From: an uncultured Candidatus Saccharibacteria bacterium
Lineage (GTDB): Bacteria; Patescibacteriota; Minisyncoccia; Phycocordibacterales; CAIZLB01
Length of the DNA stretch: 64,000 nt
Reading direction: 5' to 3'
Assembly: GCA_964368945.1 (NCBI GenBank)
Contig: CAYJDM010000006.1
Span: 22,546 to 86,545, forward strand
Part shown: in pieces, positions 36,467 to 60,477 of the stretch
Position numbering within the stretch: position 1 is the stretch's first letter
Layout: every line of letters starts with the position of its first letter
Translations under genes and position numbers: made by a program
Notes under the pieces: generated by a model
The model's database searches: none
Seen by the model: the letters and a program-made list of their open reading frames with translations, nothing else
Told to the model about the DNA's origin: nothing

Positions 36467-38815
36467 TTATTTCGCTTCTTGCAGCTGCTTGATCGCCGCA
36501 TCGATCTGAGAAGTGAGGGTCGCATCGATCGCCTTGAGCGCATTCATTTCCTTGATCGCATTGCTCTTGTCCTTCAGTCGGACATAGACATTGATGAGCG
36601 TCGATCGCAATTCCACATTCTTTGGATCCGCTTCGATCTCCTTCTTGATGAGCGAGATGATTCGTGCCTGCTGCTTCGTATTGAGATATGCATTCAATAC
36701 GGCGACATCCTGGACGTATGCGAGCTTGGCCTCAGTCGTAGTCGCGAATGCCTCAGCCTCTGCCGCCTTTCCTACCAAGACAAGGGATGCGATATAGAAT
36801 CGCTTCGCCTCCTCATTTCGCGGCTCGAGATTATATGCATAGAGAGCGGTATCGTATGCTTCCTGATTTTTGCCCAGCTGCATCTCAGTGACGATCTGCA
36901 TGATGAGGAAAGACTGCTTCTTTGGAGAAAGAGCGACGACCTCCTTGACCTGATTGTATGCCTGCTCATTCATGCCGAGCTGGCTGAGCAGCATCGTATA
37001 GAAGTATCGAGGGCGAGGATCCTTCGGGCTTCGCGCGAATTCCTTTTCGAAAGCCGCAGTGATGTATCCGAATGCGGCAGACTTAACCTCAGGCGAAGCA
37101 TTCGATGTCAGCAAAGCAGAACCCTTCTGAGCGAGCTGCTCGAGCTGTTCGGTATTCGTCATGACATTCATCTCATATGCTTCCTTCACCTTTTCGAATT
37201 GCTGTTCGGGTGTCTGCTTTACGACTTTGCCAGCAGAGTTCCTCGTTTCAGGTCGCAAGCCATCGAGAAGGACGCTATTGGCATATACCGGCTTGAGATT
37301 CACCTGATAATATACGAAGCCCATGACGACCGCGCCGATGACTGATGCGGCCAATGCATATGTAGCCTGCATGCCGAAGTCCATCCGATCGTTCTTTGAC
37401 TGCTTATGATTATGCGCGGTTCCATTTGCATGCGCATGCTCTGCCAATCGCTGCTCCTTATCGGATCGATATGCATCATGAATGAAAGCGAGGACCGAGA
37501 AGAATAGGATATAGCTCGAGAGGTTATCGAATACGAATATATTGTGACCGAGATATGCGGCGAATCCTCCGATGATGACCGCTTTCGCTCCGAATGACAT
37601 ATTCTGCGGAGAGATTTTCCAAAGCATATAGATAGCCAACGCGAATAGCGATAGGTATGAAAGGAGTCCCAAGATTCCGGCAGAGACCATCCAGTCGGTG
37701 AATACATTATGGCTTCGATCGAACCATTGCTCCTGCGCATACATAGCCGGATTGTATTTTTCCGCGAATACATAATGGAAATCGTCCAGCCCCCATCCGA
37801 GCACAGGCCTGTCCTTTACGCCATCCCATGCGATGCCCCAGAGCATGGTTCGCGCGCTTCCCTGATTCTCGAGCACGCCCTTCACGTCGAGCGTCACCAA
37901 TTCAGCGAATCGGCTGAGCATGTCTGAATTCTTTATGAATGCAGCCTGCTTAAACAAGCCGAGGAAGAGAACGACGGCAACAGAGAATATGACGAGCGTT
38001 ATGCCCACCTTGCGCAATGCCTTGTTCTGCCGCTCGAAGATCGCGATGAGAACGGAAGAGATGAAGATTCCTCCCACAAGGCCTACGAATGATCCTCGGG
38101 TACCCGTATTGAAGAGAACGATGAGATTGAAGATCGCGACCAGAGAATAGAATCCGATCGAGACGAAGGATCCTTGCTCCGAAAGCGCTTTCATAGAGCG
38201 ATGTCCTATTTTTTTCATAATAAAAAACAGACAGACGAAGATATGGATCAAGGAATAGACTCCCAGATAGCTGGAATTGCCCAATCGGCCGAAGATTCGG
38301 TAGCCGGTATGGTTCGGATCAGAATAGAATGTGAGGAAAGCCTCGATTCCCACGATGACGCTCATTATGAGAGTGGCATTGAAAAACCATGTCCACCAGC
38401 CATCTTTCTTTTTCATAGTAGATCCAGCGACGAGGAAGAATGCGAATAGATGCAAAAAGAGAACCAATCCCTCCATTCGCTCAAAGTTGCTCCAGAATGC
38501 CTTGAGCGGATCGATAGCGAAGATGGTAGAAAGGCTCAGGATGACGAGGAAGGCGCCCACTCCCCACATGAGCGGAGACATCTTTGGCCGAGAATCCCTG
38601 TCGATGACCGCCAATACTATATATATGAGTACGGCTAATTCGGCTACGACTCTGAAATAGACCGCCTTTCCGGTAATGAATGGGAAAAACAGGTCATTAA
38701 ACATCACGAACGGACTAATGACTGCCAGCATTATGACGAATGGCAGTATGTTTTTTAGGGTATTGGCTAATTTTTTCATACCCGCAAGTATATCATCAAA
38801 ACCAAGCCCTTTCAT
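36467..38815 (-). CDS. O-antigen ligase / Wzy-like polytopic membrane protein with C-terminal TPR repeats
   Basis: Start placed at the ATG at 38815 (MKGLGFDDILAGMKKLANTLKNILPFVIM), preceded by GAGGA. The ORF-track start at 39220 would overlap the divergent epimerase gene. About 10 TM helices. Wzy_C-like GTRGSFVGLVGGIF. The C-terminal 300 aa are TPR-like (AYNQVKEVVALSP..., AYDTALYAYNLEP...). Confidence 0.7.
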   Translation of the reverse strand: MKGLGFDDILAGMKKLANTLKNILPFVIMLAVISPFVMFNDLFFPFITGKAVYFRVVAELAVLIYIVLAVIDRDSRPKMSPLMWGVGAFLVILSLSTIFAIDPLKAFWSNFERMEGLVLFLHLFAFFLVAGSTMKKKDGWWTWFFNATLIMSVIVGIEAFLTFYSDPNHTGYRIFGRLGNSSYLGVYSLIHIFVCLFFIMKKIGHRSMKALSEQGSFVSIGFYSLVAIFNLIVLFNTGTRGSFVGLVGGIFISSVLIAIFERQNKALRKVGITLVIFSVAVVLFLGLFKQAAFIKNSDMLSRFAELVTLDVKGVLENQGSARTMLWGIAWDGVKDRPVLGWGLDDFHYVFAEKYNPAMYAQEQWFDRSHNVFTDWMVSAGILGLLSYLSLFALAIYMLWKISPQNMSFGAKAVIIGGFAAYLGHNIFVFDNLSSYILFFSVLAFIHDAYRSDKEQRLAEHAHANGTAHNHKQSKNDRMDFGMQATYALAASVIGAVVMGFVYYQVNLKPVYANSVLLDGLRPETRNSAGKVVKQTPEQQFEKVKEAYEMNVMTNTEQLEQLAQKGSALLTSNASPEVKSAAFGYITAAFEKEFARSPKDPRPRYFYTMLLSQLGMNEQAYNQVKEVVALSPKKQSFLIMQIVTEMQLGKNQEAYDTALYAYNLEPRNEEAKRFYIASLVLVGKAAEAEAFATTTEAKLAYVQDVAVLNAYLNTKQQARIISLIKKEIEADPKNVELRSTLINVYVRLKDKSNAIKEMNALKAIDATLTSQIDAAIKQLQEAK

Positions 38816-38912
38816 TCCCCTGCTAAGTCCTCGGTCTGCCAAGTCAGACCCTAACAGCCCAGATGCCGCCAAGTGACAAAGCTTCCGGCTTGCCCTATAA
38901 TTTGCTCCATAT

Positions 38913-39890
38913 ATGACTACATCAAAAACAGCCCTGGTTTGCGGCGCGGGAGGATTCATTGGCAGCCATTTGGTAAAGCGACTCAAGTCTGAAGGATATT
39001 GGGTTCGAGGCGTAGACCTCAAAAATCCGGACTTCGGAGCCTCTTTTGCCGATGATTTCGTCATCGGAGATTTGCGAGACCAGAGCATATGCAAGGCAAT
39101 CCTTGATCGGCCTTTCGATGAGGTATACCAGCTCGCAGCGGATATGGGCGGAGCGGGATATATTTTCACTGGAGAGCATGATGCGGACGTGATGCACAAT
39201 TCAGCGACGATCAACCTCAATATCGCTCACTATGGTCAGATCGCTGGCATCAAGAAGATTTTTTACTCATCATCAGCCTGCATGTACCCCGCATACAATC
39301 AGGAAGATCCAGAAAATCCAAACTGCAAGGAGGATTCTGCCTACCCTGCCGCTCCAGATAGCGAATATGGCTGGGAAAAGCTTTTCAGCGAGCGACTCTA
39401 TCTCGCATATAATCGAAACTATGGATTGAATGTGCGAGTCGCGCGATTCCACAATATCTTCGGACCAGAAGGAACATGGACTGGCGGAAAGGAAAAAGCC
39501 CCAGCAGCAATGTGCCGAAAAGTGGCAATGGCAGCCGACGGCGGAGAGATTGAGATCTGGGGCGATGGCAAGCAGACGCGATCATTCCTATATATAGACG
39601 AATGCCTCGAAGGCGTGCGAAGATTGATGAATCAGGACGAATTCCTAGGACCGGTCAATATCGGATCTGATGAAATGGTTACTATCAATCAGCTCGCAGA
39701 AATGACGGCAGAAATCGCTGGCAAGAAAATCGACCTCAAGCATATCGACGGTCCGCTCGGAGTGCGGGGACGAAACTCTGACAACACCCTCATTAACGAA
39801 AAGCTCGGATGGGCTCCTGGCAAGACTTTGCGAGAAGGACTCGAGAAGACATATGCTTGGATCAATGAGCAGGTTGAAAAAAATAAATAA
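38913..39890 (+). CDS. NAD-dependent nucleotide-sugar epimerase/dehydratase (extended SDR; GDP-mannose 3,5-epimerase-like)
   Basis: Rossmann motif VCGAGGFIGSH. Catalytic YGWEK (YxxxK). Confidence 0.8.
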   Translation: MTTSKTALVCGAGGFIGSHLVKRLKSEGYWVRGVDLKNPDFGASFADDFVIGDLRDQSICKAILDRPFDEVYQLAADMGGAGYIFTGEHDADVMHNSATINLNIAHYGQIAGIKKIFYSSSACMYPAYNQEDPENPNCKEDSAYPAAPDSEYGWEKLFSERLYLAYNRNYGLNVRVARFHNIFGPEGTWTGGKEKAPAAMCRKVAMAADGGEIEIWGDGKQTRSFLYIDECLEGVRRLMNQDEFLGPVNIGSDEMVTINQLAEMTAEIAGKKIDLKHIDGPLGVRGRNSDNTLINEKLGWAPGKTLREGLEKTYAWINEQVEKNK

Positions 39891-41173
39891 TGTCCGCCAT
39901 ATCCAAACTGAAGGTTATCTTGTCCCATGGTGGGTTCAAACGCTATTTCGCTAATACTGGATGGCTTGTAGTTGGGCGCGGCATCGCTCTCATCCTTTCA
40001 TTCTTTGTGGCTACGTATGTGGCGAGATATCTTGGACCGACCAATTATGGAACCCTTAGCTATGCGATCGGTTTCGTGGGGCTCTTTTCATTCCTTGCCA
40101 ATCTTGGAATCGACCAGATCATCTACAGAGAACTGATCAAGGATCCGGGAAAAAGGGATATCCTGTTGGGATCATCACTAGGGCTCAAGCTCGGCGCAGG
40201 AACGCTCGCATTCGCATTGGCAAGCATCACTTCCCTTTTTATCGACAAGAGCGCATTCGTGACATCGCTGATTTTCATCATCAGCCTTTCATTCTTGTTC
40301 CAGCCATTCCATATCGTCAATTTTTATTTCCAATCTCAAGTAAAGGCGAAAAAAATAACCATAGTCCAATTGATAGTGGCATCCATCCTCGCCATCGCGA
40401 AGGTGGCTCTCGCCCTATACGGATTCGGAATCTATTATTTTTCTGCCATATTCGTTCTCGAGGCTTTGCTATACGCGATATTCTATATCTCGCTCTACCA
40501 CAAGAGCGGCAATGCACTGGCATGGAGATTCGATAAAAAAATGGCATGGTTCATCCTGAGCGAATCTTGGCCATATATGATCGCCACCGCCCTTGCCGTC
40601 ATTTATACGCGCATCGATCAGGTGATGATAAAACATATTATCGATACGACTTCAGTGGGCATATACGATGCCGCCGTTCGAGTGGCTGAAATATGGTATT
40701 TCATTCCCGGAGCAATCATCACATCGATGTTCCCCGCGATAGTCAATGCGAGAAAGGCGGCAGATGGCAGCTATGAAAGAAGGCTGCGGCATTTCTTTGT
40801 CATCATCACGATAATCGCAGCCGCATTCGCCTTGCCGATACATCTGCTATCGAAATGGATAATCAATACTCTATACGGCATCGGATATTCGGGCGCCGAT
40901 GGCATCCTCAGCATCTATGTTTGGGGAGGGATAGGATTCAGCCTCTCTATGGCGATTACGCAGTATCTGAGCGCGGAGCATCGCAAGGTGGCAATATTCG
41001 CCAGCTCTCTCATCGGCATGATCATCAATATCACCCTCAATATCGTCTGGATTCCGATATATGGCATGCAGGGGGCGGCTTGGGCAACCCTCGTGGCATA
41101 CTCAATCCTGCCATTTACAATCCTCGTTTTCAGGCCTATCAGAAAGCATATTATCCTGATTTGCAAGTCCTAA
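39890..41173 (+). CDS. Wzx-type oligosaccharide flippase (polysaccharide biosynthesis protein, MOP superfamily)
   Basis: 427 aa with about 12 TM helices. The N-terminus FANTGWLVVGRGIALILSFFVATYVARYLGPTNYGTLSYAIGF is typical of Wzx/RfbX. Start overlaps the upstream stop. Confidence 0.75.
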   Translation: MSAISKLKVILSHGGFKRYFANTGWLVVGRGIALILSFFVATYVARYLGPTNYGTLSYAIGFVGLFSFLANLGIDQIIYRELIKDPGKRDILLGSSLGLKLGAGTLAFALASITSLFIDKSAFVTSLIFIISLSFLFQPFHIVNFYFQSQVKAKKITIVQLIVASILAIAKVALALYGFGIYYFSAIFVLEALLYAIFYISLYHKSGNALAWRFDKKMAWFILSESWPYMIATALAVIYTRIDQVMIKHIIDTTSVGIYDAAVRVAEIWYFIPGAIITSMFPAIVNARKAADGSYERRLRHFFVIITIIAAAFALPIHLLSKWIINTLYGIGYSGADGILSIYVWGGIGFSLSMAITQYLSAEHRKVAIFASSLIGMIINITLNIVWIPIYGMQGAAWATLVAYSILPFTILVFRPIRKHIILICKS

Positions 41174-41206: not shown

Positions 41207-42070
41207 ATGATTACAAAACCGGCAGTGGATGCAGCATTGAAGCAGATCGATAGCGAAGTCAGAACGTTGAAGATATCCCCTAAAAGCCTCGTTAAATTCA
41301 CCGACTCGAAGGATGACCAGCGATTCTTCAGCTACTTCAATGGGACGAATGAGTATTATCACCGTGCGCTTCCCCTTTTGATCAATAAGCTCGGGCTCAA
41401 GAATATAGTCGAGCTCGGCAGCCGCGAAGGAGTATCGACGCTCTGCATCTGGGATATGCTTCCTGCCGATGCTCACTTTACGACCATAGACCTGCTCAAG
41501 GATCAGCGATATTGTCCTGATGCCATGTATTCCGACCCGCGAGTCGATTTTATCTTTGGAGATGTCAGTGACCTCTCCATCTTCGAGGGCAAATACCCTT
41601 TTGATATAGACCTGCTTTTCTCCGATACGATTCATTATAATTTCCAGGTCACTGACGAATTCGAAATCTATCAGTATTTCTTGGCAGATACCTGCCTCTT
41701 TGCAATCGACGATATTCATATAAACGATAAGGAGAAATTTTTCGATAAGATTCCATATGAGAAATGGGATCTGACCGAGCTATATCACAAATCAGGCTGG
41801 GGAATGTTTCTATATAAGCGAAAGGAAAAGCTGACCCGCGAAGAGCGATTGCTGAAAGCATATCAAGCCTCTGCGGCAATCTGGAAGCGGAAGACCGAAG
41901 AACAAGAGGCCATCGCACAGAAATTCACCAAACGGTCACCGAAGCATATTGCCAAGGCGACGATCAAGAGGGTAAAGCCCCTGCATTCCCTGCTGACAGG
42001 CGCGTATAATAGATACAATGCGAATCGGCTCCGCAAGCGAACGCAAAGCATAATCAATCCAAACAAATGA
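41207..42070 (+). CDS. putative class I SAM-dependent O-methyltransferase (CmcI/family-3-like)
   Basis: VELGSREGVSTLCIWDML (motif I-like), TTIDL, DLLFSDTIH (motif II-like). Weak, pattern-based. Confidence 0.4.
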   Translation: MITKPAVDAALKQIDSEVRTLKISPKSLVKFTDSKDDQRFFSYFNGTNEYYHRALPLLINKLGLKNIVELGSREGVSTLCIWDMLPADAHFTTIDLLKDQRYCPDAMYSDPRVDFIFGDVSDLSIFEGKYPFDIDLLFSDTIHYNFQVTDEFEIYQYFLADTCLFAIDDIHINDKEKFFDKIPYEKWDLTELYHKSGWGMFLYKRKEKLTREERLLKAYQASAAIWKRKTEEQEAIAQKFTKRSPKHIAKATIKRVKPLHSLLTGAYNRYNANRLRKRTQSIINPNK

Positions 42071-43011
42071 AGATAATCGCCCTTTTTCCCATAAAGAATG
42101 ACCGCTGGATACTCGATATCGTCATACCCCAGCTAAAGAAATTCGCCGACGAAATCCTCGTATTGGACGGAGGATCGACGGATGGTACGATAGAAACCCT
42201 CAGATCGTATGGCGTAGAGGTCAAGGATCAGGACCAGTCGAATATGAATTATTCATCATGGCGGCAAGAGCTGCTTGATTGGGGGCGCGAGCGAGGCGGC
42301 ACACATTTCATCTGGCTCGATGCTGATGAGGCATTCACTACGAATTTTCTTCCGATTTTCCGAGACGAGATAGCCAAGCTCAAGCCGGGACAAAAGCTCG
42401 CGATGCAATGGCTTTGCCTTTGGAAAAGCCCATATGTATACCGTGAGGATTCTTCGGTATGGAGCAATCTCTATAAGGATTTCGTATTCTGCGATGACGG
42501 AAAGGCGGTTTTCGAAAGAATAAAGCTCCATGAGGGCCGAACGCCCGGACCGAATAATGAGGAAACTTGGGTTAGGCTGCCGTTGGAAAAAGGAGGCGTT
42601 CTCCATTTTCAATTCGTTCCATTCCAGCGCTTTCAGATCAAGCAGGCTTTCATGAAATGCAGAGAGCATATTATGAACAATGCCACTCCGCGACGGCTGA
42701 ATTATAAATATAGCGAGACGCTTGATACGAAAAAGGCCCGCACAAAGCCGATTCCAGAAGCATGGCTCGAGGGCATTACGGGAATGGACAAGATCGAAGA
42801 CACTGCCAATACGTCATATGACAAGCAGATCATGCAGTACTTCGACGAGAAAGGAATCGAATTTTTTGAGCCAATGCAGATTTGGCATATCAAAAAATAT
42901 GCGGATATGTTTATTTCAAAAGTCGGTCGCAAGCCTCGTCCTCAGGCCCACCCTGCCATCGTCATCTGGGCGGCAAAATTGCGAGCTAAGATAAAGAAAG
43001 CATTACGATGA
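42067..43011 (+). CDS. glycosyltransferase family 2-like
   Basis: ILVLDGGSTDGT is the GT2 nucleotide-binding signature. WLDADEAF is a DxD-like motif. ATGA overlap with the upstream gene. Confidence 0.6.
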   Translation: MKIIALFPIKNDRWILDIVIPQLKKFADEILVLDGGSTDGTIETLRSYGVEVKDQDQSNMNYSSWRQELLDWGRERGGTHFIWLDADEAFTTNFLPIFRDEIAKLKPGQKLAMQWLCLWKSPYVYREDSSVWSNLYKDFVFCDDGKAVFERIKLHEGRTPGPNNEETWVRLPLEKGGVLHFQFVPFQRFQIKQAFMKCREHIMNNATPRRLNYKYSETLDTKKARTKPIPEAWLEGITGMDKIEDTANTSYDKQIMQYFDEKGIEFFEPMQIWHIKKYADMFISKVGRKPRPQAHPAIVIWAAKLRAKIKKALR

Positions 43012-51993: not shown

Positions 51994-52006
51994 AGATGAT
52001 TAGGTA

Positions 52007-53071
52007 TTAAAAATTAATTAGAGTCTTTGTTCCTTCGAAATCGAATCTGATCTTGCGCTCTTCGAGGCCGATCTCCTTCATGCGCTTTCGAAAGGCGCCC
52101 TTGTTCTCTTTTACATAGAAGACGAACCAGCCTCCTCCTCCGGCACCCATGATCTTTCCTCCCAAGGCTCCTGCAATCATAGCCTCTTTGTACCATTCGT
52201 CAATTTGCGTATTAGACACCTGTTCCGAAAGCGTCTTCTTGATCTTCCAATGCTCATCGAAGGTACGGCCGAAGGCATCGACATCTCCATTTTCCAAATA
52301 TTTCTTTGCCTTCTGCCCGAGCTTCTTTATCGCATCAAGCGCCTTGAAATGCTTGGCGCCCTTCTTTCCATCGGATGATTTCTTTGCCTTATTCGCAGCG
52401 TCTGCGAGAGCTGTGCCCGCATCGCGATAGATTCCCGTTCGGAAATAAAGCAAATTTGATTCGAGCTCTGAGATGGCGTGGAGCGAAAGCGATACCGGCT
52501 CCATGGTTACATTGCCTTTCGTATCGCGCTCATAATAATTGATGCCCCCATGAGCGACGATGTATTGATCCTGAGGACCGATGAAATCGCGCCCAAGTTT
52601 AACCTTCTCGATAGAATATGCCTTTTTTCCAAGCAAGGTCTTTGAGATCGACTCGCCTTTATATGTATACAAAGCGTTAAGGAGACCAACCTCAAGGGCT
52701 CCGGATCCTCCCAGTCCCGATCTGCCAGAAACCTCGGATGTGATATTGACGCTGATTCCGCTTTTGACATCGGCATGCTCGAGACAGGCTTTTACATACA
52801 GATTCGGAATATCCTTGTATGAATTGCTCTGAGATGCCTCATGGCCGTATGCGTAACCGACAAATCGAGCATCTTCGGTCATGGTAAGAGTAACAACGAG
52901 ATACCTATTTATTGTCGCGCTTATCCATGCTCCGCCTTTGACATCGCTATACCAATCGACATCTGTCCCTCCTCCGGCAAGGGTTATGCGCATCGGGGTC
53001 TGCGTGACGATTACCGCTCTTTCTCTGTACGTATGAGGACGCTTAAACACTTGTTCTTTATCCATATGCAA
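52007..53071 (-). CDS. hddA: GHMP-family D-glycero-alpha-D-manno-heptose 7-phosphate kinase
   Basis: GHMP motifs PMRITLAGGGTDVD and SGRSGLGGSGALEVGLLNALY. Adjacent to gmhA. Confidence 0.75.
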   Translation of the reverse strand: MHMDKEQVFKRPHTYRERAVIVTQTPMRITLAGGGTDVDWYSDVKGGAWISATINRYLVVTLTMTEDARFVGYAYGHEASQSNSYKDIPNLYVKACLEHADVKSGISVNITSEVSGRSGLGGSGALEVGLLNALYTYKGESISKTLLGKKAYSIEKVKLGRDFIGPQDQYIVAHGGINYYERDTKGNVTMEPVSLSLHAISELESNLLYFRTGIYRDAGTALADAANKAKKSSDGKKGAKHFKALDAIKKLGQKAKKYLENGDVDAFGRTFDEHWKIKKTLSEQVSNTQIDEWYKEAMIAGALGGKIMGAGGGGWFVFYVKENKGAFRKRMKEIGLEERKIRFDFEGTKTLINF

Positions 53072-53129
53072 GAAAGTATATATATGTATGGAGGGTTATA
53101 CAAGCCGCGCTCATGTACCACACTATATA

Positions 53130-53175
53130 AAAAAGATCCCCGCACACGGTCACGGGGACCTTCTGTGCGGGGACG
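53130..53175 (-). terminator. terminator/attenuator-like structure between the NUDIX gene and hddA
   Basis: CCCCGCACA (53137-53145) pairs with TGTGCGGGG (53164-53172). An alternative pairing uses the internal CACGGGGACC. On the minus strand it is followed by TTTTTTATATAG. Confidence 0.5.
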
Positions 53176-53203
53176 GTTATTCGAATGGACGAAATACGAG
53201 CTC

Positions 53204-53815
53204 TTAGCCCCTCTCTCCGTCTTCGTATTCGAACTCTGCGAGCCTCAAGGCATCGGCGAATGGCTTCGGAAAGTTCCGCGGGATGCGCGAGAACCATTTA
53301 TGTTCGCCGACACTGCCATCGCCTTCGAACTTTTCAGGCACGCTTTCGAGTTCCACGACATACAGATGCCAGAGGCTCCACCACGGCCGGTTCGGCGCGC
53401 ATTGGCTCTCTGGATTCAGCGTCGGAAACTCTCCGAGGTATTCGTACCCGAGACCGTCGAGATCGAGACCGATCTCCCTCTTGACCACCCTGATGAGAGC
53501 AGCCTTCGAGGTTTCGCCGGCCTCGATGCGTCCGCCTTTGAGGAAGTACTCGTTTTTCCATGGACGCTCCTTGCGGCGCGATCCAAGGAAATGAAGCACT
53601 CCGTCGAAGCGGCAGACTACAATAAAGTCAGCGGTCGAAGTCACTCCGAAGTGCTGAGTATCGGGCATGGCAGGCACAGGGATCCACTTCATTTGTGCCC
53701 TGACGGCTTCCCTGGTTGCTTCATCGGCATCGTAAAACGGGCCGAGACGATCTGGGAATGCAGGATTCAGAGGCGCGGCGGAAGGATCCGCCACGAGAGA
53801 TATCTTCTCGCTCAT
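53204..53815 (-). CDS. NUDIX hydrolase
   Basis: Nudix box GGRIEAGETSKAALIRVVKREIGLD. 203 aa. Confidence 0.65.
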   Translation of the reverse strand: MSEKISLVADPSAAPLNPAFPDRLGPFYDADEATREAVRAQMKWIPVPAMPDTQHFGVTSTADFIVVCRFDGVLHFLGSRRKERPWKNEYFLKGGRIEAGETSKAALIRVVKREIGLDLDGLGYEYLGEFPTLNPESQCAPNRPWWSLWHLYVVELESVPEKFEGDGSVGEHKWFSRIPRNFPKPFADALRLAEFEYEDGERG

Positions 53816-54059
53816 TTTTGGTTAGTATTGGATATGCGGCTTTTAGGCGCTGGTTTTTTGGGCTGGAATGAACTGTCGCTAAAGGAATTGGCAGCAGTTT
53901 TTAGCATGTATATTATGCATCTATATTGTGTAAAAGTCAATAGCACGGATCCGATTCAACCAAGGCACCTTCCCCACCAGCAATGCCTTATATATCCCCA
54001 AAATACATGCTAAAATGACCCTTATACCAAATTAGCCAAGCTGTTTTATCAGCAAATAC

Positions 54060-54914
54060 ATGAAACACCTCGTATTAGGATCATCAGGACAGGTCGGAGA
54101 AGGTCTCGTCGAATACATTCGCAAGATCGGCCATGAAGCCATCGAATTCGATATCGTGCGAAACGTCGAAGAAGACCTGCGCATTCCGAATAATCCCCTG
54201 CTCGACAAGGCCGTATCGGAAGCTGACTTCGTTTTCTTCCTTGCATTCGATGTGGGAGGCGCGCGATACCTCAAGAAGTATCAGGAGACATATGACTTCG
54301 TGACGAACAACCAGAAGCTCATGGTCAATACATTCGAGGCCATCAAGAAGCATGGCAAGAGATTCATCTTCGCATCGAGCCAGATGTCGAGCATGACTTT
54401 TTCCAATTATGGCGTTCTCAAGAATCTGGGAGAAAAAATGACCGACATCCTCGATGGCCGAGTCGTGAAGTTCTGGAATGTATACGGATTCGAGCGAGAC
54501 CTCGAGAAATCGCATGTAATCACCGACCTCATCCTCAAGGCGCATAAGCAGAAGGAGATCAGCCTCATGACAAGCGGTCAGGAAGAACGACAATTCCTCC
54601 ATGTAGAAGACTGCGCGAAATGCCTCATCACGATCGCGGAGCGATACGATGAGATCAGCAAGGAACACCCTCTCCATATCACGACATTCGAATGGACGAA
54701 AGTCATCGATGTGGCGAATATCATCAGCCACAATTTCGACAATATGCCAGTCGTTCCGACTATCGTGGCTTCTGATCAGCAAAACGATGTGCAGCATGCC
54801 ATCAAGAATGATGCCTCAACTTATATTTTGCGATTCTGGAAGCCTGAAATCGATCTCAAGACCGGCATCGTGGACATTATCAAGCGCATGAAGGAGCATG
54901 GAATGATTTCATAG
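54060..54914 (+). CDS. NAD(P)-dependent epimerase/reductase (RmlD/extended SDR-like)
   Basis: HLVLGSSGQVG Rossmann-like motif, YGVLKNLGE (YxxxK). A TGCTAAAAT extended -10 lies about 45 nt upstream. Confidence 0.5.
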   Translation: MKHLVLGSSGQVGEGLVEYIRKIGHEAIEFDIVRNVEEDLRIPNNPLLDKAVSEADFVFFLAFDVGGARYLKKYQETYDFVTNNQKLMVNTFEAIKKHGKRFIFASSQMSSMTFSNYGVLKNLGEKMTDILDGRVVKFWNVYGFERDLEKSHVITDLILKAHKQKEISLMTSGQEERQFLHVEDCAKCLITIAERYDEISKEHPLHITTFEWTKVIDVANIISHNFDNMPVVPTIVASDQQNDVQHAIKNDASTYILRFWKPEIDLKTGIVDIIKRMKEHGMIS

Positions 54915-55912: not shown

Positions 55913-56738
55913 TATGCGACAATTCCTCAAACACCATCTTTCCATAAAGACCAAGGCCAAGCTGCTCGCTTTCGAGCGCCTGACCAAGCTTCTTATTCGT
56001 CCTCAAGTAGCGCGAGACTTGTATATCTACAATGAGCTCAAATCCGCCAAGCATGCTGGAGAGCCCCGCTTCTCCATAAAGATCGTGGATGTCTTCCCTA
56101 TCACGGGCGAGAATACGAAGTATACGAGCTTCGACAGGCATTATGTATATCACACATCATGGGCCGCTCGCGCGGTATCGGAATTGGATTCTGCCGCAAA
56201 GCAATCAGGGCGAAATGACTATAAGCATATCGATATCTCTTCAAGCCTTTATTTCAGCGGCATCGTTTCCGCATTCGTTCCTGTGGATTTTTATGACTAT
56301 CGACCAGCGGATCTCCGCCTCGAAGGATTGACGACGAATCCTGGAGACCTCATGAAGCTGCCATTCGCCAGCGACAGCGTCGAATCAATCTCTTGCCTCC
56401 ATACGATAGAGCATATCGGCCTCGGCAGATATGGCGATCCCATCGATCCGGATGGCGACATGAAGGCGCTCGCTGAATTGAAGCGCGTCGTCAAAAAGGG
56501 AGGCTCGCTGCTTATCGTCGTGCCCGTTGGAAGACAGCGGATCGAATTCAATGCGCATCGCATATATGCCCCAAGCCATATGAATGATCTGATCTGCGGC
56601 GATGGAGAATTTTCTCTCAAGGAATATGCCTATATACCCGAAACGGATAAGGAAGGCGGCCTCGAGCGAGGAGCCGACCTGAGCAAGGGCTCGAATGATA
56701 GATATGCCTGCGGATGCTTCTGGTTTACGAAGAATTGA
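55902..56738 (+). CDS. putative SAM-dependent methyltransferase (DUF268-like)
   Basis: ISCLHTIEHIGLGRYGDPIDPDGDMKALAELKRVVKKGGSLLIVVPVG resembles the class I MTase motif II/III region as found in DUF268-type proteins. Weak. Confidence 0.4.
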   Translation: MANNMRQFLKHHLSIKTKAKLLAFERLTKLLIRPQVARDLYIYNELKSAKHAGEPRFSIKIVDVFPITGENTKYTSFDRHYVYHTSWAARAVSELDSAAKQSGRNDYKHIDISSSLYFSGIVSAFVPVDFYDYRPADLRLEGLTTNPGDLMKLPFASDSVESISCLHTIEHIGLGRYGDPIDPDGDMKALAELKRVVKKGGSLLIVVPVGRQRIEFNAHRIYAPSHMNDLICGDGEFSLKEYAYIPETDKEGGLERGADLSKGSNDRYACGCFWFTKN

Positions 56739-56769
56739 TCAAAATTTAATCACATACAATATACACAAA

Positions 56770-57714
56770 ATGAACACTGAAAAAAGAATGGAATTGCAGA
56801 AAATGATACTCGCTAATGTCAAAAGCTCAGAGTCCAAGCCGACTCGCTTGAGCAGGCTGCTCAAGGAACCGGTAAAGTCCATTCCTTTTTTCTGCAAGCA
56901 GGTCATCGCGCGCATAAAGCCTTTCAAGGTCGACTATAAGACGCTTTGGAACGATACGATGTCATTCTATCTGCCCGAAGGAAATGCCATCTACTATTAT
57001 GGATATTATGAAGCGGACCTGACGAATTTTTTCATCAATGCGATCCATGATGGCGACGTATTCTTCGATATCGGAACGCATGTCGGATACTATACCCTTC
57101 TCGCCTCTCGCCTTGCCGCTTCTTCAGGATCAGTGCACGGATTCGAGCCTACGCCAAGAACGTTCAAGACGCTTTCTGAAAATATGGCGAGGAATGCGGG
57201 CGCTGCAGACGGAATATCACGAGCGAAAGTCTCGCTTAACAATGTGGCGGTCTTGGATCATGAGACCGAAATCGATTTCGTGGATTATGGGCCAAAAAAT
57301 AGCGCCTTCAATAGCTATAAATCGCGAGACGGAGAAGGCATGGAATTCCTAGGACAGCCAGAGCACTTCAAGGCAAAGACCATATCGCTCGATGCTTACT
57401 GCAAGGAGAGATCTGTCGCGCCGACCATCATCAAGATCGATGCGGAAGGAGCAGAGCATCTCATATTGCAGTCGATGAACCAGATACTCGAGAATGCCAA
57501 GCCTATCGTCACTATCGAAGTCGGCGGCGGCGCAGAATGGAAGCATAATTGCGATCAGTCGATTGATTTTCTCCTAGGAAAGGGCTATGCATGCTATGAG
57601 ACGACGATCGAGGGCAAAATTAAGCCTCATATCAGGCAGGATCTATATCACTACGACAATCTCATCTTCATCCATCCGGAAAAGATGGCCAAGGTGCAGA
57701 ATATTTTGGCATAA
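56770..57714 (+). CDS. FkbM family methyltransferase
   Basis: FFDIGTHVGYYTLLAS and IIKIDAEGAEHLIL (FkbM motifs). Start moved to the ATG at 56770 (MNTEKRMELQKM), just after the upstream stop. Confidence 0.7.
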   Translation: MNTEKRMELQKMILANVKSSESKPTRLSRLLKEPVKSIPFFCKQVIARIKPFKVDYKTLWNDTMSFYLPEGNAIYYYGYYEADLTNFFINAIHDGDVFFDIGTHVGYYTLLASRLAASSGSVHGFEPTPRTFKTLSENMARNAGAADGISRAKVSLNNVAVLDHETEIDFVDYGPKNSAFNSYKSRDGEGMEFLGQPEHFKAKTISLDAYCKERSVAPTIIKIDAEGAEHLILQSMNQILENAKPIVTIEVGGGAEWKHNCDQSIDFLLGKGYACYETTIEGKIKPHIRQDLYHYDNLIFIHPEKMAKVQNILA

Positions 57715-57725
57715 AGAAAAACCGA

Positions 57726-58703: not shown

Positions 58704-58715
58704 TATAATGACCGC

Positions 58716-59621
58716 ATGTTTTATACAGCCATAAAAAGCGGATTGGGAAACCAGATGTTTCAGTATGCATATGGCTATACTGCCGCCAAAAAAGCCGGAT
58801 TGGATCTATCGCTCGATACCAGCGCATATGGGAGGCAGTTTGCAAAAGATACGCCGCGCAATTTCACGCTTCAGCATTTCAATATCGAAGCGAAGATAGC
58901 AACTGACGAAGAGACTGCGCGCTTTCATACCACTCTCAGATTCTTCTTGCGCAGGGTTCGCAATAAGCTTTGGCCATTCGCGAATATGACTTTTTATCCA
59001 AAGGAATTCGCAGTCAAAGACGGCCAGTACAAGGAGGGCTATTGGCAGAATGAAAAATATTTCATCGATTGCGCGGACGATATCCGACGTCAGTTCACGC
59101 TCAAGGCCGGCTTTGGCCCAGAGGCATCAAGGGCACTCGATGAGATTCGGGCATGCAAAGAAAAAGGAATCATCACCGTACTTGTTCATGTCCGTCGGGG
59201 AGATTTCGTCACGAATGTCCACGCCCGTGCTGAACAAGGGGCGCTCGACATCGACTATTTCAAGCGAGGCATCGACCTTATCGCAGAGAGGATCGCGCTC
59301 AAGGCAAAGATGGGAAATGATTTTGAGAAAAACATTCCGAGCATCCATATTTTCTTCGCATCAGACGATATCCCTTGGGTTTTAGAAAATATCAAGACCG
59401 ATTTTCCATCAAGCGCCATAAGCGCACCAGGCATCAAAGATTATGAAGAGCTTCTTATAATGTCGAATTGCGATCATTTCGTAATCTCGAATTCGAGCTT
59501 CAGCTGGTGGGCGGCTTGGCTTTCTACCAATCCGAACAAGATCGTCATTGCGCCCAAGCGATGGCGAGTGGATAATGCCGATACAAGCGATGCTACCCCA
59601 CCGAACTGGCTTCGAATCTAA
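58716..59621 (+). CDS. alpha-1,2-fucosyltransferase-like glycosyltransferase (GT11)
   Basis: GT11 motif I GLGNQMFQYAYG and motif VLVHVRRGDF (HxRRGD). Confidence 0.75.
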   Translation: MFYTAIKSGLGNQMFQYAYGYTAAKKAGLDLSLDTSAYGRQFAKDTPRNFTLQHFNIEAKIATDEETARFHTTLRFFLRRVRNKLWPFANMTFYPKEFAVKDGQYKEGYWQNEKYFIDCADDIRRQFTLKAGFGPEASRALDEIRACKEKGIITVLVHVRRGDFVTNVHARAEQGALDIDYFKRGIDLIAERIALKAKMGNDFEKNIPSIHIFFASDDIPWVLENIKTDFPSSAISAPGIKDYEELLIMSNCDHFVISNSSFSWWAAWLSTNPNKIVIAPKRWRVDNADTSDATPPNWLRI

Positions 59622-59631
59622 TATCTAATAT

Positions 59632-60477
59632 ATGAGCGATACAGCGAATACCGACAATAAGCCGAATATTTCGGCAATCATACCGACGAGAAATGGCCAT
59701 GCAACGATCGCGCGGGCAATTCAGAGCATGCTGGATCAGACTTTGGTTCCGTCTGAGATCTTGATCATTTCTGACAATGATGTGATAGACGCTGCGGGCA
59801 AGATCGCATCCGATGAGCTGCATGCCGTCATCGCTAACAATTTTGCAAATGAAAGTTTCTCAGAAGACGCAAGAGGCAAAATCCGCATAATCCAAGGACC
59901 ATCGAAAGGCCCCGGAATTGCCCGCAATCTCGGAGTCGAAAAGGCATCGAACGATCTGATCGCCTTTCTCGACGATGACGATATATGGAGCGATAAGCAG
60001 AAGCTCGAGAAGCAGGCCGCTTATCTGGCAAACCACCCTGAGATAGATGTCGTCGGAGCGGAGACAGCTTTTTTCATAAGAGAGAATGGCGAAAAATTCC
60101 AGACAATAACACAGCCAACAGATCCTGAGGCGGTACGCGATCAGATGCTTGTCCGCAATCCCCTCATCACATCTTCCGTCTTGATGCGCCGACAGGCATT
60201 CATCGATGCGAAAGGCTTCAAGCCAATGTATCTCGCCGAAGACTATGACCTCTGGCTGCGCATGAATCGCAAGCGAAATCGAATCTCAAATGTACCCGGC
60301 ACATCGATCGAATATACCGTACGCGAAGGCAGCGCTTCCCAGAAAAGAAAAGTCCGCATGGCATATGCGGTCGCTTCTCTCGTATTCAAGAATGCATTTT
60401 TTTATCCAAATAAATTCGCAATCGTAAAAGCGAAATGGCCAATCTTCAAGAGATTGCTAGCTGAGAAGCTTCGATAA
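59632..60477 (+). CDS. glycosyltransferase family 2
   Basis: ISAIIPTRNGHATIARAIQSMLDQT (GT2 N-terminus), AFLDDDDIW (DxD). Confidence 0.7.
   Translation: MSDTANTDNKPNISAIIPTRNGHATIARAIQSMLDQTLVPSEILIISDNDVIDAAGKIASDELHAVIANNFANESFSEDARGKIRIIQGPSKGPGIARNLGVEKASNDLIAFLDDDDIWSDKQKLEKQAAYLANHPEIDVVGAETAFFIRENGEKFQTITQPTDPEAVRDQMLVRNPLITSSVLMRRQAFIDAKGFKPMYLAEDYDLWLRMNRKRNRISNVPGTSIEYTVREGSASQKRKVRMAYAVASLVFKNAFFYPNKFAIVKAKWPIFKRLLAEKLR

What the first reader, a model, noticed from the sequence alone, without database searches (positions are those of the whole stretch)
36467..60477. A 24 kb surface-glycan locus encodes a complete GDP-D-glycero-alpha-D-manno-heptose pathway plus four methyltransferases, a GT11 fucosyltransferase-like enzyme and a Wzx/Wzy pair
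gmhA (51427-51993), hddA (52007-53071), gmhB (50055-50708) and hddC (50712-51440) together form the four-step GDP-heptose route known from S-layer glycan and capsule biosynthesis in Gram-positive bacteria. A transaldolase gene lies divergent to gmhB and separated from it by only 5 bp. The transketolase subunit is in the same window. Both link to sedoheptulose-7-phosphate supply. Around the pathway genes are two FkbM methyltransferases (one fused to a GT4), a CmcI-like and a DUF268-like methyltransferase, GT2 (three copies), GT4, GT11, two NDP-sugar epimerases, a UDP-sugar 6-dehydrogenase, a WbpB-like oxidoreductase, an SDR, two NUDIX hydrolases, a Wzx flippase and a Wzy/O-antigen-ligase-like protein with a 300 aa TPR domain. 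The predicted product is a heavily O-methylated glycan containing heptose and probably 6-deoxyhexose, polymerised or ligated outside the membrane. That is unusual content for a putatively small-genome monoderm.
Basis: partly seen in the sequence, partly recalled or inferred. Interest (0 to 1): 0.55.

Follow-up and report, generated by a model that had tools for sequence, protein, structure and literature searches.

The report
Heptose surface-sugar locus in a CPR bacterium
A tiny-genome (CPR/Parcubacteria) bacterium carries a 24 kb cell-surface sugar locus whose core is a heptose-activation pathway with its own transaldolase; this five-gene module recurs across CPR and other phyla, so it is a refinement of a known pathway, not a new system.

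Summary
Window 36.5-60.5 kb holds Wzy_C/TPR, Wzx, three GT2s, a GT4-FkbM fusion, GT11, four methyltransferases, three extended SDRs, an NDP-sugar dehydrogenase, a GFO oxidoreductase, an SDR, one NUDIX, a transaldolase and a GmhA/HddA/GmhB/nucleotidyltransferase set.

The organism is a CPR bacterium related to Candidatus Taylorbacteria.

HddA, GmhA and GmhB are specifically heptose-type. The nucleotidyltransferase lacks the HddC signature motif, so "GDP" is inferred and not shown.

The new result is comparative. A transaldolase homologue sits in the heptose cluster in 17/17 CPR-type and 13/14 non-CPR loci that have at least 4 kb on both sides of hddA. The nine genes at 45.1-53.1 kb form a block that recurs in CPR. 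The glycosyltransferase, methyltransferase, Wzx and Wzy genes are strain-specific.

Corrections:
- ORF 52841-54013 is spurious.
- Only one NUDIX lies inside the locus.
- No 4,6-dehydratase is present. Gene 38913-39890 is GDP-mannose 3,5-epimerase-like, which points to L-galactose or L-gulose and not a 6-deoxyhexose.
- The module is common in CPR, not unusual.

Verdict: a known pathway in a variant, transaldolase-coupled form. Interest is moderate.

The parts
36470..38785 (-). Wzy_C (O-antigen polymerase/ligase/O-OTase family) membrane protein with a C-terminal TPR region. The ORF extends to 39220, but the real start is probably M146 or M158.
   Evidence: Pfam Wzy_C 65 bits and TPR_19. The N-terminal 145 codons overlap the divergent gene and look non-coding.
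38913..39890 (+). GDP-mannose 3,5-epimerase-like extended SDR
   Evidence: It carries the S-A-C123, Y152xxxK156, EKAPAA Lys and RGRNSDN Arg motifs, which match the defining GM35E residues in PMC8787198. Homologues at ~80% identity are named GDP-D-mannose 3',5'-epimerase by JGI.
39890..41173 (+). Wzx-type MOP flippase
   Evidence: Pfam Polysacc_synt 103 bits; NCBIfam Wzx_EPS
41207..42070 (+). Methyltransf_24 (CmcI-clan) methyltransferase
   Evidence: Pfam 33.8 bits, above the cut-off of 26.3
42067..43011 (+). GT2 glycosyltransferase (weak match)
   Evidence: Pfam Glycos_transf_2 29.9 bits
43008..45137 (+). GT4 glycosyltransferase fused to an FkbM methyltransferase
   Evidence: Glycos_transf_1 at residues 218-355 and Methyltransf_21 at 448-621; TIGR01444
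45134..46120 (-). Extended SDR of the GDP-sugar 4-epimerase (GDP-Gal4E) subgroup, CPR variant. Part of the conserved block.
   Evidence: Best PDB matches are 3EHE, 8RDG, 3ICP and 3AW9 (E 1e-74 to 1e-52), all members of the archaeal GDP-Gal4E subgroup (PMC12171764). Equivalents of R83, H182, Y145 and K149 are kept. P80 is replaced by A and N174 by S, and both changes are conserved in CPR.
46098..47090 (-). GFO/IDH/MocA sugar dehydrogenase; conserved block
   Evidence: Pfam; the nearest solved relatives are sugar 3-/inositol dehydrogenases; syntenic in other loci
47100..48422 (-). NDP-sugar 6-dehydrogenase (UDP-glucose dehydrogenase-like); conserved block
   Evidence: TIGR03026 297 bits, above its cut-off. 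PDB UGDHs score 191 bits against 119 for GDP-mannose dehydrogenase.
48400..49248 (-). Classical SDR oxidoreductase; conserved block
   Evidence: adh_short 179 bits; syntenic in other loci
49264..50049 (-). Short-type transaldolase (TalC/FSA family) with a CPR-specific insertion of about 33 aa
   Evidence: TAL_FSA 110 bits; PDB short transaldolases. D13, E68, K96, T123, F150 and R153 are invariant in alignment A2. Linked to hddA in 30/31 loci with at least 4 kb on both sides.
50055..50708 (+). GmhB-type heptose-1,7-bisphosphate 7-phosphatase (HAD-IIIA). The start is TTG 50055, GTG 50058 or GTG 50079.
   Evidence: E. coli GmhB 2gmw scores 83 bits. The DRDG, SNQP, CxHH...CxCRKP and GDxxxD motifs are conserved. 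Start codons.
50712..51440 (+). Sugar-1-phosphate nucleotidyltransferase (inferred heptose-1-P guanylyltransferase; not HddC-type by motif)
   Evidence: NTP_transferase 130 bits. Top NCBIfam hit is mannose-1-P guanylyltransferase; the HddC model ranks 6th. PDB matches. The motif is ENLTQPRGTAGA where HddC has EXXPLGTGGA.
51427..51993 (-). Divergent GmhA-type sedoheptulose-7-P isomerase (SIS domain)
   Evidence: All 12 PDB hits are phosphoheptose isomerases. H54, D58, E171 and H179 align with the BpGmhA zinc/catalytic ligands and are invariant in CPR orthologues.
52007..53071 (-). HddA-type D-glycero-D-manno-heptose-7-P kinase (GHMP)
   Evidence: PDB 4n3o, 3k85 and 4usk at E 1e-37 to 4e-35. The NCBIfam HddA model is the best hit at 154 bits. 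[quoted passage not shown]
53204..53815 (-). NUDIX hydrolase (candidate NDP-sugar hydrolase); strain-specific
   Evidence: Pfam NUDIX 40 bits; a called gene in L010; no homologue in the other 92 loci
54060..54914 (+). Short extended SDR (epimerase/reductase family)
   Evidence: Pfam Epimerase 85 bits
54950..55912 (+). GT2 glycosyltransferase
   Evidence: Pfam 42 bits
55902..56738 (+). DUF268-type methyltransferase
   Evidence: Pfam DUF268 68 bits and Methyltransf_11
56695..57714 (+). FkbM methyltransferase
   Evidence: Methyltransf_21 56 bits; TIGR01444 84 bits
57726..58703 (+). Unassigned protein, possibly a GT-B glycosyltransferase
   Evidence: Only a marginal Glycos_transf_1 hit (E 0.13) and an E-x7-E motif. 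The AF2 model was unusable.
58716..59621 (+). GT11 (fucosyl/L-galactosyl-transferase family)
   Evidence: Pfam Glyco_transf_11 101.5 bits
59632..60477 (+). GT2 glycosyltransferase
   Evidence: Pfam 77 bits
4440..7971 (-). Non-oxidative pentose-phosphate genes elsewhere in the window that can feed the transaldolase: transketolase N-subunit 4440-5366, ribulose-P 3-epimerase 6457-7389 and RpiB 7420-7971
   Evidence: Pfam

Best explanation
This is the cell-surface glycan locus of a CPR (Parcubacteria, Taylorbacteria-related) bacterium. It has two parts: a recurrent precursor block (45.1-53.1 kb) and strain-specific assembly genes on either side.

Proposed route in the core block:
1. The cluster-encoded short transaldolase makes sedoheptulose-7-P from fructose-6-P and erythrose-4-P. 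Transketolase, Rpe and RpiB lie at 4.4-8 kb in the same window.
2. GmhA isomerises it to D-glycero-D-manno-heptose-7-P.
3. The GHMP kinase HddA phosphorylates C1 to give the alpha-1,7-bisphosphate.
4. GmhB removes the 7-phosphate.
5. The nucleotidyltransferase forms NDP-heptose. [quoted passage not shown]

A GDP-sugar-4-epimerase-type SDR in the same block probably tailors this or another GDP-sugar. The NDP-sugar dehydrogenase, the GFO oxidoreductase and the classical SDR supply or tailor further precursors, with substrates unknown. Outside the core, a GDP-mannose-3,5-epimerase-like enzyme would give GDP-L-galactose or GDP-L-gulose for the GT11 enzyme. The GT2 and GT4 enzymes and four methyltransferases build and methylate the repeat. 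Wzx flips it, and the Wzy_C/TPR protein polymerises or ligates it outside the membrane.

Shown here: family assignments, conserved catalytic residues, gene linkage. Inferred: every substrate, the nucleotide, the order of steps and the acceptor.
For: - Organism: the five closest genomic loci are Taylorbacteria, Parcubacteria or Paceibacterota MAGs.
- HddA matches heptose-7-P kinases specifically.
- GmhA's solved relatives are exclusively GmhA, and the ligand residues are conserved.
- GmhB has the DxD motif and zinc loop.
- The transaldolase's catalytic Asp/Glu/Lys/Thr and the Tal-type Phe are invariant.
- Linkage: a TAL homologue lies in the cluster in 17/17 CPR-type and 13/14 non-CPR loci with at least 4 kb on both sides. 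With at least 5 kb flanks and an 8 kb radius the counts are 16/16 and 11/13. Chance expectation for one tal gene per ~1 Mb genome is about 2%.
- The nine-gene block is syntenic in L002, L004, L005, L007 and L011, and in L003 and L012 as far as those loci extend. It persists after rearrangement (P0070 locus) and is interleaved in L081 and a single operon in L067.
- GDP is supported indirectly. The linked epimerase belongs to the GDP-sugar 4-epimerase subgroup. In the non-CPR loci where that epimerase sits beside hddA it keeps equivalents of P80, R83, N174 and H182. The top NCBIfam hit of the nucleotidyltransferase is a mannose-1-P guanylyltransferase.
- The flanking GT, MTase, Wzx and Wzy genes have no or few homologues in 92 related loci, as expected for variable glycan loci.
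Against: - None of the four heptose enzymes, nor the transaldolase, reaches NCBIfam's curated equivalog cut-off: HddA 154/600, GmhA 49/209, GmhB 122/178, HddC model 99.5/300, Tal 102/246.
- The nucleotidyltransferase lacks the HddC motif, and its best solved relative is a UDP-glucose pyrophosphorylase.
- No initiating polyprenyl-phosphate glycosyl-phosphate transferase and no dedicated mannose-1-P guanylyltransferase were found in the window.
- The CPR epimerase has lost two of the four residues shown to matter in PhGal4E_1.
- There are no biochemical or glycan-composition data for any CPR organism.
Confidence: 0.7

Rival explanations
1. The nine conserved genes form one pathway. After NDP-heptose is made, the 4-epimerase-type SDR, the NDP-sugar dehydrogenase, the GFO oxidoreductase and the classical SDR all act on it. 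The product would be an undescribed modified heptose, for example a talo-configured heptose, a 3-epimer or a hepturonic acid, and it would be a conserved CPR envelope component.
For: - The four redox genes accompany the heptose genes in most CPR-type loci: SDR 14/16, GFO 13/16, epimerase 13/16, dehydrogenase 9/16.
- They stay together after rearrangement.
- They are interleaved with heptose genes in L081 and form a single co-directional operon in L067.
- The epimerase is of the GDP-sugar type.
Against: - The dehydrogenase resembles UDP-glucose dehydrogenases more than GDP-mannose dehydrogenase (191 vs 119 bits).
- The GFO enzyme's nearest solved relatives act on free sugars or inositols.
- In non-CPR heptose operons these genes are mostly absent (1-2 of 13).
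- Co-location of precursor genes for two different sugars of one glycan is common.
Confidence: 0.3
2. The pathway makes an NDP-heptose with a nucleotide other than GDP (UDP, CDP, dTDP or ADP).
For: - The HddC guanine-binding motif EXXPLGTGGA is absent. The CPR consensus is E[DN]PxxP[LM]GTAGA and the window reads ENLTQPRGTAGA.
- The best solved relative is a UDP-glucose pyrophosphorylase (8x7s, E 6e-33). Cytidylyl- and uridylyl-transferases also score better than Yersinia HddC.
Against: - A conserved Glu (E79) remains two residues further from the PxGT motif.
- GDP-mannose pyrophosphorylases are the next-best relatives, and the top NCBIfam hit is a mannose-1-P guanylyltransferase.
- The linked epimerase is of the GDP-sugar subgroup.
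- All characterised HddA-type (alpha) routes end in GDP-heptose (own knowledge: Kneidinger et al. 2001).
Confidence: 0.2
3. The 'heptose' enzymes act on hexose phosphates. The SIS protein would be a phosphomannose isomerase. The kinase and phosphatase would replace phosphomannomutase (mannose-6-P to mannose-1,6-bisP to mannose-1-P). [quoted passage not shown]
For: - No other mannose-1-P guanylyltransferase or phosphomannomutase is in the window.
- The nucleotidyltransferase's top NCBIfam hit is mannose-1-P guanylyltransferase.
- HddC enzymes accept mannose-1-P in assays (PMC6981941).
- GmhA similarity is weak (44-49 bits).
Against: - The near-universal linkage of a transaldolase, whose product is the C7 substrate.
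- HddA's margin of about 26 orders of magnitude for heptose kinases over other GHMP kinases.
- The only solved relatives of the SIS protein are heptose isomerases.
- GmhB's closest relatives are heptose bisphosphate phosphatases.
Confidence: 0.07
4. The transaldolase is only the housekeeping pentose-phosphate enzyme. It lies next to the heptose genes through inherited gene order and has no functional coupling to them.
For: - The other non-oxidative PPP genes are in the same window, and no second tal is seen there.
- CPR genomes are small and gene order can be inherited.
Against: - The linkage holds in Parcubacteria, Microgenomates (Daviesbacteria), Saccharimonadales and Peregrinibacteria. It also holds in loci of a second HddA clade whose named relatives are Omnitrophota, Chloroflexota/Dehalococcoidia and Thermodesulfobacteriota MAGs.
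- It holds with different gene orders and orientations. That points to selection for co-location and not shared ancestry.
Confidence: 0.1

Closest known systems
[quoted passage not shown]
   Same: The same four enzyme families and the same predicted chemistry. HddA's best solved relatives are the heptose-7-P kinases 4n3o, 3k85 and 4usk. GmhA and GmhB keep their active-site residues.
   Different: - All four proteins fall far below the curated equivalog scores.
- The nucleotidyltransferase is not of the HddC motif type.
- A transaldolase is part of the cluster. The searchable literature does not describe this for the characterised clusters.
- In CPR the module travels with four redox enzymes.
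Archaeal promiscuous GDP-sugar 4-epimerases (PhGal4E_1 8RDG, A. fulgidus 3EHE, P. calidifontis 3ICP/3AW9)
   Same: Gene 45134-46120 matches them at E 1e-74 to 1e-52 over the full length. It has the catalytic Y/K plus equivalents of R83 and H182.
   Different: P80 is replaced by Ala and N174 by Ser, and both changes are fixed in the CPR clade. The enzyme is linked to heptose genes. Its substrate is unknown.
GDP-mannose 3,5-epimerase (Arabidopsis GM35E 2C54/2C59; Methylacidiphilum GM35E)
   Same: Gene 38913-39890 has the Ser-Ala-Cys, YxxxK, Lys-base and Arg motifs that separate GM35E from GDP-fucose synthase and GalE. JGI names its homologues GM35E.
   Different: It was not aligned residue by residue to a solved GM35E here, and NCBIfam has no matching model (the best hit is Fcl at 115/500). 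No GDP-mannose-forming enzyme was identified beside it.
Wzx/Wzy-dependent O-antigen, capsule and S-layer-glycan assembly, including Wzy_C-domain O-oligosaccharyltransferases (PglL, WsaB)
   Same: A Wzx flippase and a Wzy_C membrane protein sit with GT2, GT4 and GT11 enzymes.
   Different: No initiating phosphoglycosyltransferase or chain-length regulator is in the window. The host has no outer membrane or lipid A core, so the acceptor (protein, lipid or wall polymer) is unknown. A C-terminal TPR extension is present.
Short (TalC/FSA-family) transaldolases such as Thermoplasma acidophilum TacTal, Thermotoga maritima and B. subtilis Tal
   Same: Same fold family, with the Schiff-base Lys, Asp, Glu, Thr and Tal-type Phe conserved.
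   Different: An insertion of about 33 aa follows R153 in the Parcubacteria and Microgenomates copies. The score against the TIGR00875 model is low (102 against a cut-off of 246). The gene is embedded in a glycan-precursor cluster.

Membership tests
[quoted passage not shown] | GHMP-family kinase (HddA) specific for heptose-7-P, which gives the alpha-anomer (as opposed to the ribokinase-type HldE/HldA) | tested here: met
   Best PDB hits are heptose-7-P kinases at E 1e-37 to 4e-35, against 6e-11 for fucokinase. The HddA model is the top NCBIfam hit, though at 154 bits against a cut-off of 600. The GHMP motifs are conserved.
[quoted passage not shown] | SIS-domain sedoheptulose-7-P isomerase (GmhA) with its catalytic and metal-binding His/Glu/Gln/His set | tested here: met
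   All 12 PDB hits are GmhA. H54, D58, E171 and H179 align with BpGmhA H64, E68, Q175 and H183 and are invariant in 12 orthologues. The score is low (49 bits against a cut-off of 209).
[quoted passage not shown] | HAD-IIIA heptose-1,7-bisphosphate phosphatase (GmhB) with the DxD nucleophile motif and the Cys/His zinc loop | tested here: met
   E. coli GmhB scores 83 bits. DRDG, CxHH...CxCRKP and GDxxxD are conserved. Anomer preference cannot be read from the sequence.
HddC (heptose-1-P guanylyltransferase) family | EXXPLGTGGA motif, whose Glu80 binds guanine (PMC6981941) | tested here: not met
   The window reads ENLTQPRGTAGA and the CPR consensus is E[DN]PxxP[LM]GTAGA, so the Glu lies two residues further from the Pro. 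The HddC model ranks 6th at 99.5 against a cut-off of 300. Yersinia HddC scores 2.6e-15 against 6e-33 for a UGPase.
[quoted passage not shown] | Demonstrated formation of GDP-heptose from sedoheptulose-7-P | not testable with these tools
   Needs enzyme assays.
Transaldolase (short TalC/FSA family) | Schiff-base Lys, catalytic Asp/Glu/Thr, and Phe (Tal) in place of Tyr (FSA) after the S-x motif | tested here: met
   D13, E68, K96, T123, S148-x-F150 and R153 are invariant in alignment A2, and they align to TacTal. The Tal-versus-FSA reading of Glu/Phe rests on my own knowledge. NCBIfam scores 102 against a cut-off of 246.
GDP-sugar 4-epimerase (GDP-Gal4E) subgroup | Catalytic S/T..YxxxK plus the P80, R83, N174 and H182 network of PhGal4E_1 | tested here: inconclusive
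   The Y/K pair and the R83 and H182 equivalents are present. P80 is replaced by A94 and N174 by S187. The non-CPR epimerases adjacent to hddA keep all four.
GDP-mannose 3,5-epimerase | Cys acid (S-A-C), Lys base, and Arg that acidifies the Cys; distinct from GMER (His base, Lys) | tested here: met
   The motifs SAC123, Y152xxxK156, GGKEKAPAA and GVRGRNSDN are present and match the criteria of PMC8787198. JGI names the homologues GM35E. This is motif-level evidence only; no residue-by-residue alignment to a solved GM35E was made.
Wzx/Wzy-dependent glycan assembly | Flippase, Wzy_C polymerase/ligase and an initiating polyprenyl-P glycosyl-1-P transferase | tested here: inconclusive
   Wzx and Wzy_C are present. 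No Bac_transf or WecA-type protein was found among the ORFs tested in the window.
CAZy GT11 | Match to the Glyco_transf_11 profile above the gathering score | tested here: met
   101.5 bits against a cut-off of 23.9, covering profile positions 33-295 of 298. The donor sugar is not testable.

The most novel reading that the evidence does not exclude
The nine-gene block (tal, gmhA, hddA, gmhB, nucleotidyltransferase, GDP-sugar-4-epimerase-type SDR, NDP-sugar dehydrogenase, GFO oxidoreductase, classical SDR) is one pathway. It turns pentose-phosphate intermediates into a modified GDP-heptose that has not yet been described, for example a C4- or C3-epimerised or C7-oxidised heptose. That sugar would be a conserved, lineage-typical envelope sugar of CPR bacteria, with the cluster transaldolase as a dedicated sedoheptulose-7-P supplier.
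Probability: 0.25. Interest if true: 0.65.

Novelty: new variant of a known kind. Interest (0 to 1): 0.45.

Why it matters
The envelopes of CPR/Patescibacteria are almost uncharacterised, yet these cells live attached to hosts, so their surface glycans are likely to matter for attachment and recognition.

This locus shows that a heptose-nucleotide route is a common, conserved CPR trait. It comes with its own transaldolase and, in CPR, usually four co-inherited redox enzymes. That gives a concrete set of five to nine enzymes that can be reconstituted in vitro.

It also exposes an annotation gap. NCBI names these kinases 'galactokinase' or 'hypothetical protein', and no curated model reaches its cut-off.

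The transaldolase-heptose operon also occurs in a second HddA clade whose named relatives are Omnitrophota, Chloroflexota and Thermodesulfobacteriota MAGs. I found no paper describing it.

The chemistry is still a variation on a known pathway, and the assembly genes are ordinary variable glycan-locus content.

Tried and rejected
- ORF 52841-54013(+), the longest ORF between hddA and the next SDR. It has no Pfam or NCBIfam hit and a Cys/Arg/His-rich translation, and it overlaps hddA and the real NUDIX gene on the other strand. Rejected as a gene.
- Single-sequence AlphaFold2 of the unassigned protein 57726-58703. Mean pLDDT was 36, which is unusable, so no fold search was run.
- Promoter and terminator scan of 36.0-55.9 kb. 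Promoter-like sites are not above chance (34 against 28.3 +/- 4.7) and terminators only mildly so (26 against 17.7 +/- 4.7). The one notable site is an 11/12 match at 38873-38901, upstream of 38913.
- Exact-sequence cluster look-up of ten window proteins. It confirmed nine as called genes but returned no source names.
- Searches for a second NUDIX inside the locus by motif. The only canonical Nudix box in the window is at 32859-32918.
- Looked for a 4,6-dehydratase signature in the three extended SDRs. None has it. The SDR at 45134-46120 reads STSSVYG and the SDR at 38913-39890 reads SSACMYP.
- A 'WbpB-like' assignment of the GFO enzyme is not specifically supported.
- Literature searches for heptose in CPR and for transaldolase in heptose clusters. 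Only a KEGG-level remark on Paceibacteria turned up.
- Gene-order comparison with the Aneurinibacillus and Geobacillus S-layer glycan clusters could not be done, because those sequences are not in the collections available here.

Full report
**What is there**

In order, the genes are:

- Wzy_C/TPR membrane protein: ORF 36467-39220(-), real start probably near 38785
- extended SDR: 38913-39890(+)
- Wzx: 39890-41173
- Methyltransf_24 enzyme: 41207-42070
- GT2: 42067-43011
- GT4-FkbM fusion: 43008-45137
- on the minus strand: extended SDR 45134-46120, GFO/IDH/MocA oxidoreductase 46098-47090, NDP-sugar 6-dehydrogenase 47100-48422, classical SDR 48400-49248, TAL_FSA protein 49264-50049
- divergent from these: GmhB-like HAD-IIIA phosphatase 50055-50708 and NTP_transferase 50712-51440
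- convergent on those: SIS/GmhA-like protein 51427-51993(-) and HddA-like GHMP kinase 52007-53071(-)
- NUDIX: 53204-53815(-)
- third extended SDR: 54060-54914
- GT2: 54950-55912
- DUF268 methyltransferase: 55902-56738
- FkbM: 56695-57714
- unassigned protein: 57726-58703
- GT11: 58716-59621
- GT2: 59632-60477

The locus is bounded by SecA (33055-36033) and a VirD4/TraG-like ATPase (60457-63051). Eight of the ten sequences I looked up, plus the 352-aa database form of HddA, are called genes in public assemblies.

**Corrections to the observation**

- The 390-aa ORF 52841-54013(+) is not a gene. The real gene in that interval is the NUDIX on the other strand.
- The second NUDIX lies outside the locus, at about 32.6-32.9 kb.
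- There are three extended SDRs, not two.
- The free-standing 'GT4' is only marginally supported.
- TPR signal covers about 150 aa, not 300.
- The 5-bp tal/gmhB spacing depends on a TTG start, and two GTG alternatives exist.

**Organism**

The closest genomic loci to hddA (71-79% identity) are in MAGs of Candidatus Taylorbacteria, the Parcubacteria group and Paceibacterota.

**Are the heptose genes really heptose genes?**

- HddA: the best solved relatives are three heptose-7-phosphate kinases (E 1e-37 to 4e-35). Fucokinase (6e-11), galactokinase (7e-8) and mevalonate kinases are far behind. The NCBIfam HddA model is the top hit by 20 orders of magnitude.
- GmhA: similarity is weak (44-49 bits), but all 12 solved relatives are phosphoheptose isomerases. 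The residues that align with the Burkholderia GmhA zinc/catalytic ligands (H54, D58, E171, H179) are invariant in 12 orthologues.
- GmhB: it aligns to E. coli GmhB (83 bits) and keeps DRDG, the CxHH...CxC zinc loop and GDxxxD.
- Nucleotidyltransferase: this is the weak link. Its best solved relative is a UDP-glucose pyrophosphorylase (8x7s, 6e-33), followed by GDP-mannose pyrophosphorylases, a cytidylyltransferase and MurU. Yersinia HddC scores only 2.6e-15. The HddC family motif EXXPLGTGGA, whose Glu80 reads guanine (PMC6981941), is replaced by ENLTQPRGTAGA. The CPR consensus is E[DN]PxxP[LM]GTAGA.

None of the proteins reaches NCBIfam's curated cut-offs. The alpha-heptose route is therefore well supported, but 'GDP' is an inference.

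**The comparative result**

tblastn of the window proteins against the related genomic loci showed that nine genes are syntenic at 40-79% identity. These are hddA, gmhA, the nucleotidyltransferase, gmhB, tal, the SDR, the dehydrogenase, the GFO enzyme and the epimerase (window 45.1-53.1 kb). The GT, MTase, Wzx and Wzy genes have no counterparts.

Context look-ups for more distant HddA homologues showed:

- the same nine genes in Daviesbacteria
- the same block in two further contigs, one of them cut at the locus end
- all nine again in a rearranged order
- tal next to hddA in Saccharimonadales and Peregrinibacteria

A metagenome scan with an HddA alignment added 80 loci. I built HMMs from the CPR orthologues and searched six-frame ORFs with them.

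| Loci considered | CPR-type | Distant HddA clade |
|---|---|---|
| at least 4 kb on both sides of hddA: tal homologue present | 17/17 | 13/14 |
| at least 5 kb flanks, 8 kb radius: tal | 16/16 | 11/13 |
| same: SDR | 14/16 | 2/13 |
| same: GFO | 13/16 | 2/13 |
| same: epimerase (score 250 or more) | 13/16 | 4/13 |
| same: NDP-sugar dehydrogenase | 9/16 | 1/13 |

The tal gene is usually within 3 kb of hddA. The distant group was placed taxonomically from one locus, L091. Its HddA is from an Omnitrophota MAG, and its named homologues (54-82% identity) are from Omnitrophota, Chloroflexota/Dehalococcoidia and Thermodesulfobacteriota MAGs. The typical operon in that group is epimerase-(NTase)-hddA-gmhA-gmhB-tal-(NTase). 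Its tal genes are full-length TalC/FSA-family members.

The transaldolases share the Schiff-base Lys (K96), D13, E68, T123 and an S-x-F-x-x-R motif. From my own knowledge of the family, Glu plus Phe is the transaldolase state and not the fructose-6-phosphate-aldolase state. The Parcubacteria and Microgenomates copies carry an insertion of about 33 aa.

With one tal per ~1 Mb genome, chance co-location within 8 kb would be about 2%. I found no paper describing a transaldolase inside heptose clusters. The only CPR mention is a KEGG-module remark that Paceibacteria encode heptose synthesis (PMC9166423).

**The redox genes**

The epimerase at 45134-46120 matches 3EHE, 8RDG, 3ICP and 3AW9 at E 1e-74 to 1e-52. 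PMC12171764 places these structures in an archaeal, promiscuous GDP-sugar 4-epimerase subgroup. The window enzyme keeps the catalytic Tyr/Lys and the R83 and H182 equivalents. It has Ala for P80 and Ser for N174, and both substitutions are fixed in the CPR clade. The non-CPR epimerases that sit beside hddA keep all four residues. This is indirect support for a GDP-linked product and for tailoring of it.

The dehydrogenase is UDP-glucose-dehydrogenase-like. The GFO enzyme is nearest to sugar and inositol dehydrogenases. The SDR is generic.

In one non-CPR locus these genes are interleaved with the heptose genes (L081), and in another they form one nine-gene operon (L067). A single pathway to a modified heptose therefore remains possible. 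I put it at about 0.25-0.3.

**Outside the core**

[quoted passage not shown] Its homologues, about 80% identical across many Patescibacteria, are named GM35E by JGI. No 4,6-dehydratase is present. The GT11 enzyme is therefore more likely to transfer L-galactose or L-gulose than a 6-deoxyhexose. The source of GDP-mannose is unclear, and the single nucleotidyltransferase may serve both sugars. No initiating phosphoglycosyltransferase was found in the window.

**Mechanism proposed**

1. Transaldolase: F6P + E4P gives S7P.
2. GmhA gives heptose-7-P.
3. HddA gives the alpha-1,7-bisphosphate.
4. GmhB gives the alpha-1-phosphate.
5. The nucleotidyltransferase gives (G)DP-heptose.
6. Tailoring follows.
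7. GT2, GT4 and GT11 transfer the sugars, and four methyltransferases methylate them.
8. Wzx flips the unit.
9. The Wzy_C/TPR protein polymerises it or ligates it to an unknown acceptor.

Family assignments, conserved residues and linkage are shown. Substrates, the nucleotide and the acceptor are inferred.

**Verdict**

The locus is a variant of a known kind. Its most informative feature is the widespread five-gene heptose module with an embedded transaldolase, extended in CPR to a nine-gene block. Interest is moderate (0.45).

Noticed in passing
window 12707-19093(-) and 19230-22142(-): Two very large proteins (2129 and 971 aa) with NHL/beta-propeller repeats. The larger one also has a peptidoglycan-binding domain. 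They are candidate surface proteins and possible glycosylation targets.
   Followed up: no
window 60457-63051(-): An 864-aa VirD4/TraG/TrwB-like type IV coupling ATPase lies directly next to the glycan locus.
   Followed up: no
window 1199-4380(-): A second small glycosyltransferase group (GT34/nucleotide-diphospho-sugar transferase-like, GT8, GT4) lies next to the transketolase N-subunit gene.
   Followed up: no
window 4440-7971: Non-oxidative pentose-phosphate genes are clustered here (transketolase N-terminal subunit, ribulose-P 3-epimerase with a ~130-aa N-terminal extension, RpiB). No transketolase C-terminal subunit was seen nearby. The 303-aa ORF 5441-6349(+) between them has no family hit.
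   Followed up: partly
window 38913-39890 and homologues P0137-P0255: [quoted passage not shown] The 119 best cluster representatives after the query's own sequence are all 77-98% identical. The few that carry an organism name are Patescibacteria, Doudnabacteria or Nomurabacteria. This is far more conserved than the heptose enzymes (35-79%).
   Followed up: no
HddA homologues: [quoted passage not shown] No NCBIfam equivalog model reaches its cut-off for any of the pathway proteins, which is an annotation gap for CPR and other uncultivated phyla.
   Followed up: partly
L010 (Logan ERR4405439 contig), gene 5378-5929: The public gene call for gmhB starts at an internal ATG (183 aa) and cuts off the catalytic DRDG motif. 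The true start must be one of the upstream TTG or GTG codons.
   Followed up: yes
L008 and L012: In Saccharimonadales-type loci an inositol-monophosphatase-family gene sits between gmhA and the nucleotidyltransferase. L008 also has a NUDIX gene there. The window's own NUDIX has no homologue in the other loci.
   Followed up: partly
window 38873-38901(+): The best sigma-70-like match in the region (GTGACA-17-TATAAT, 11/12) lies just upstream of the 38913 start, in the divergent gap to the Wzy gene. The overall promoter count is not above chance.
   Followed up: no
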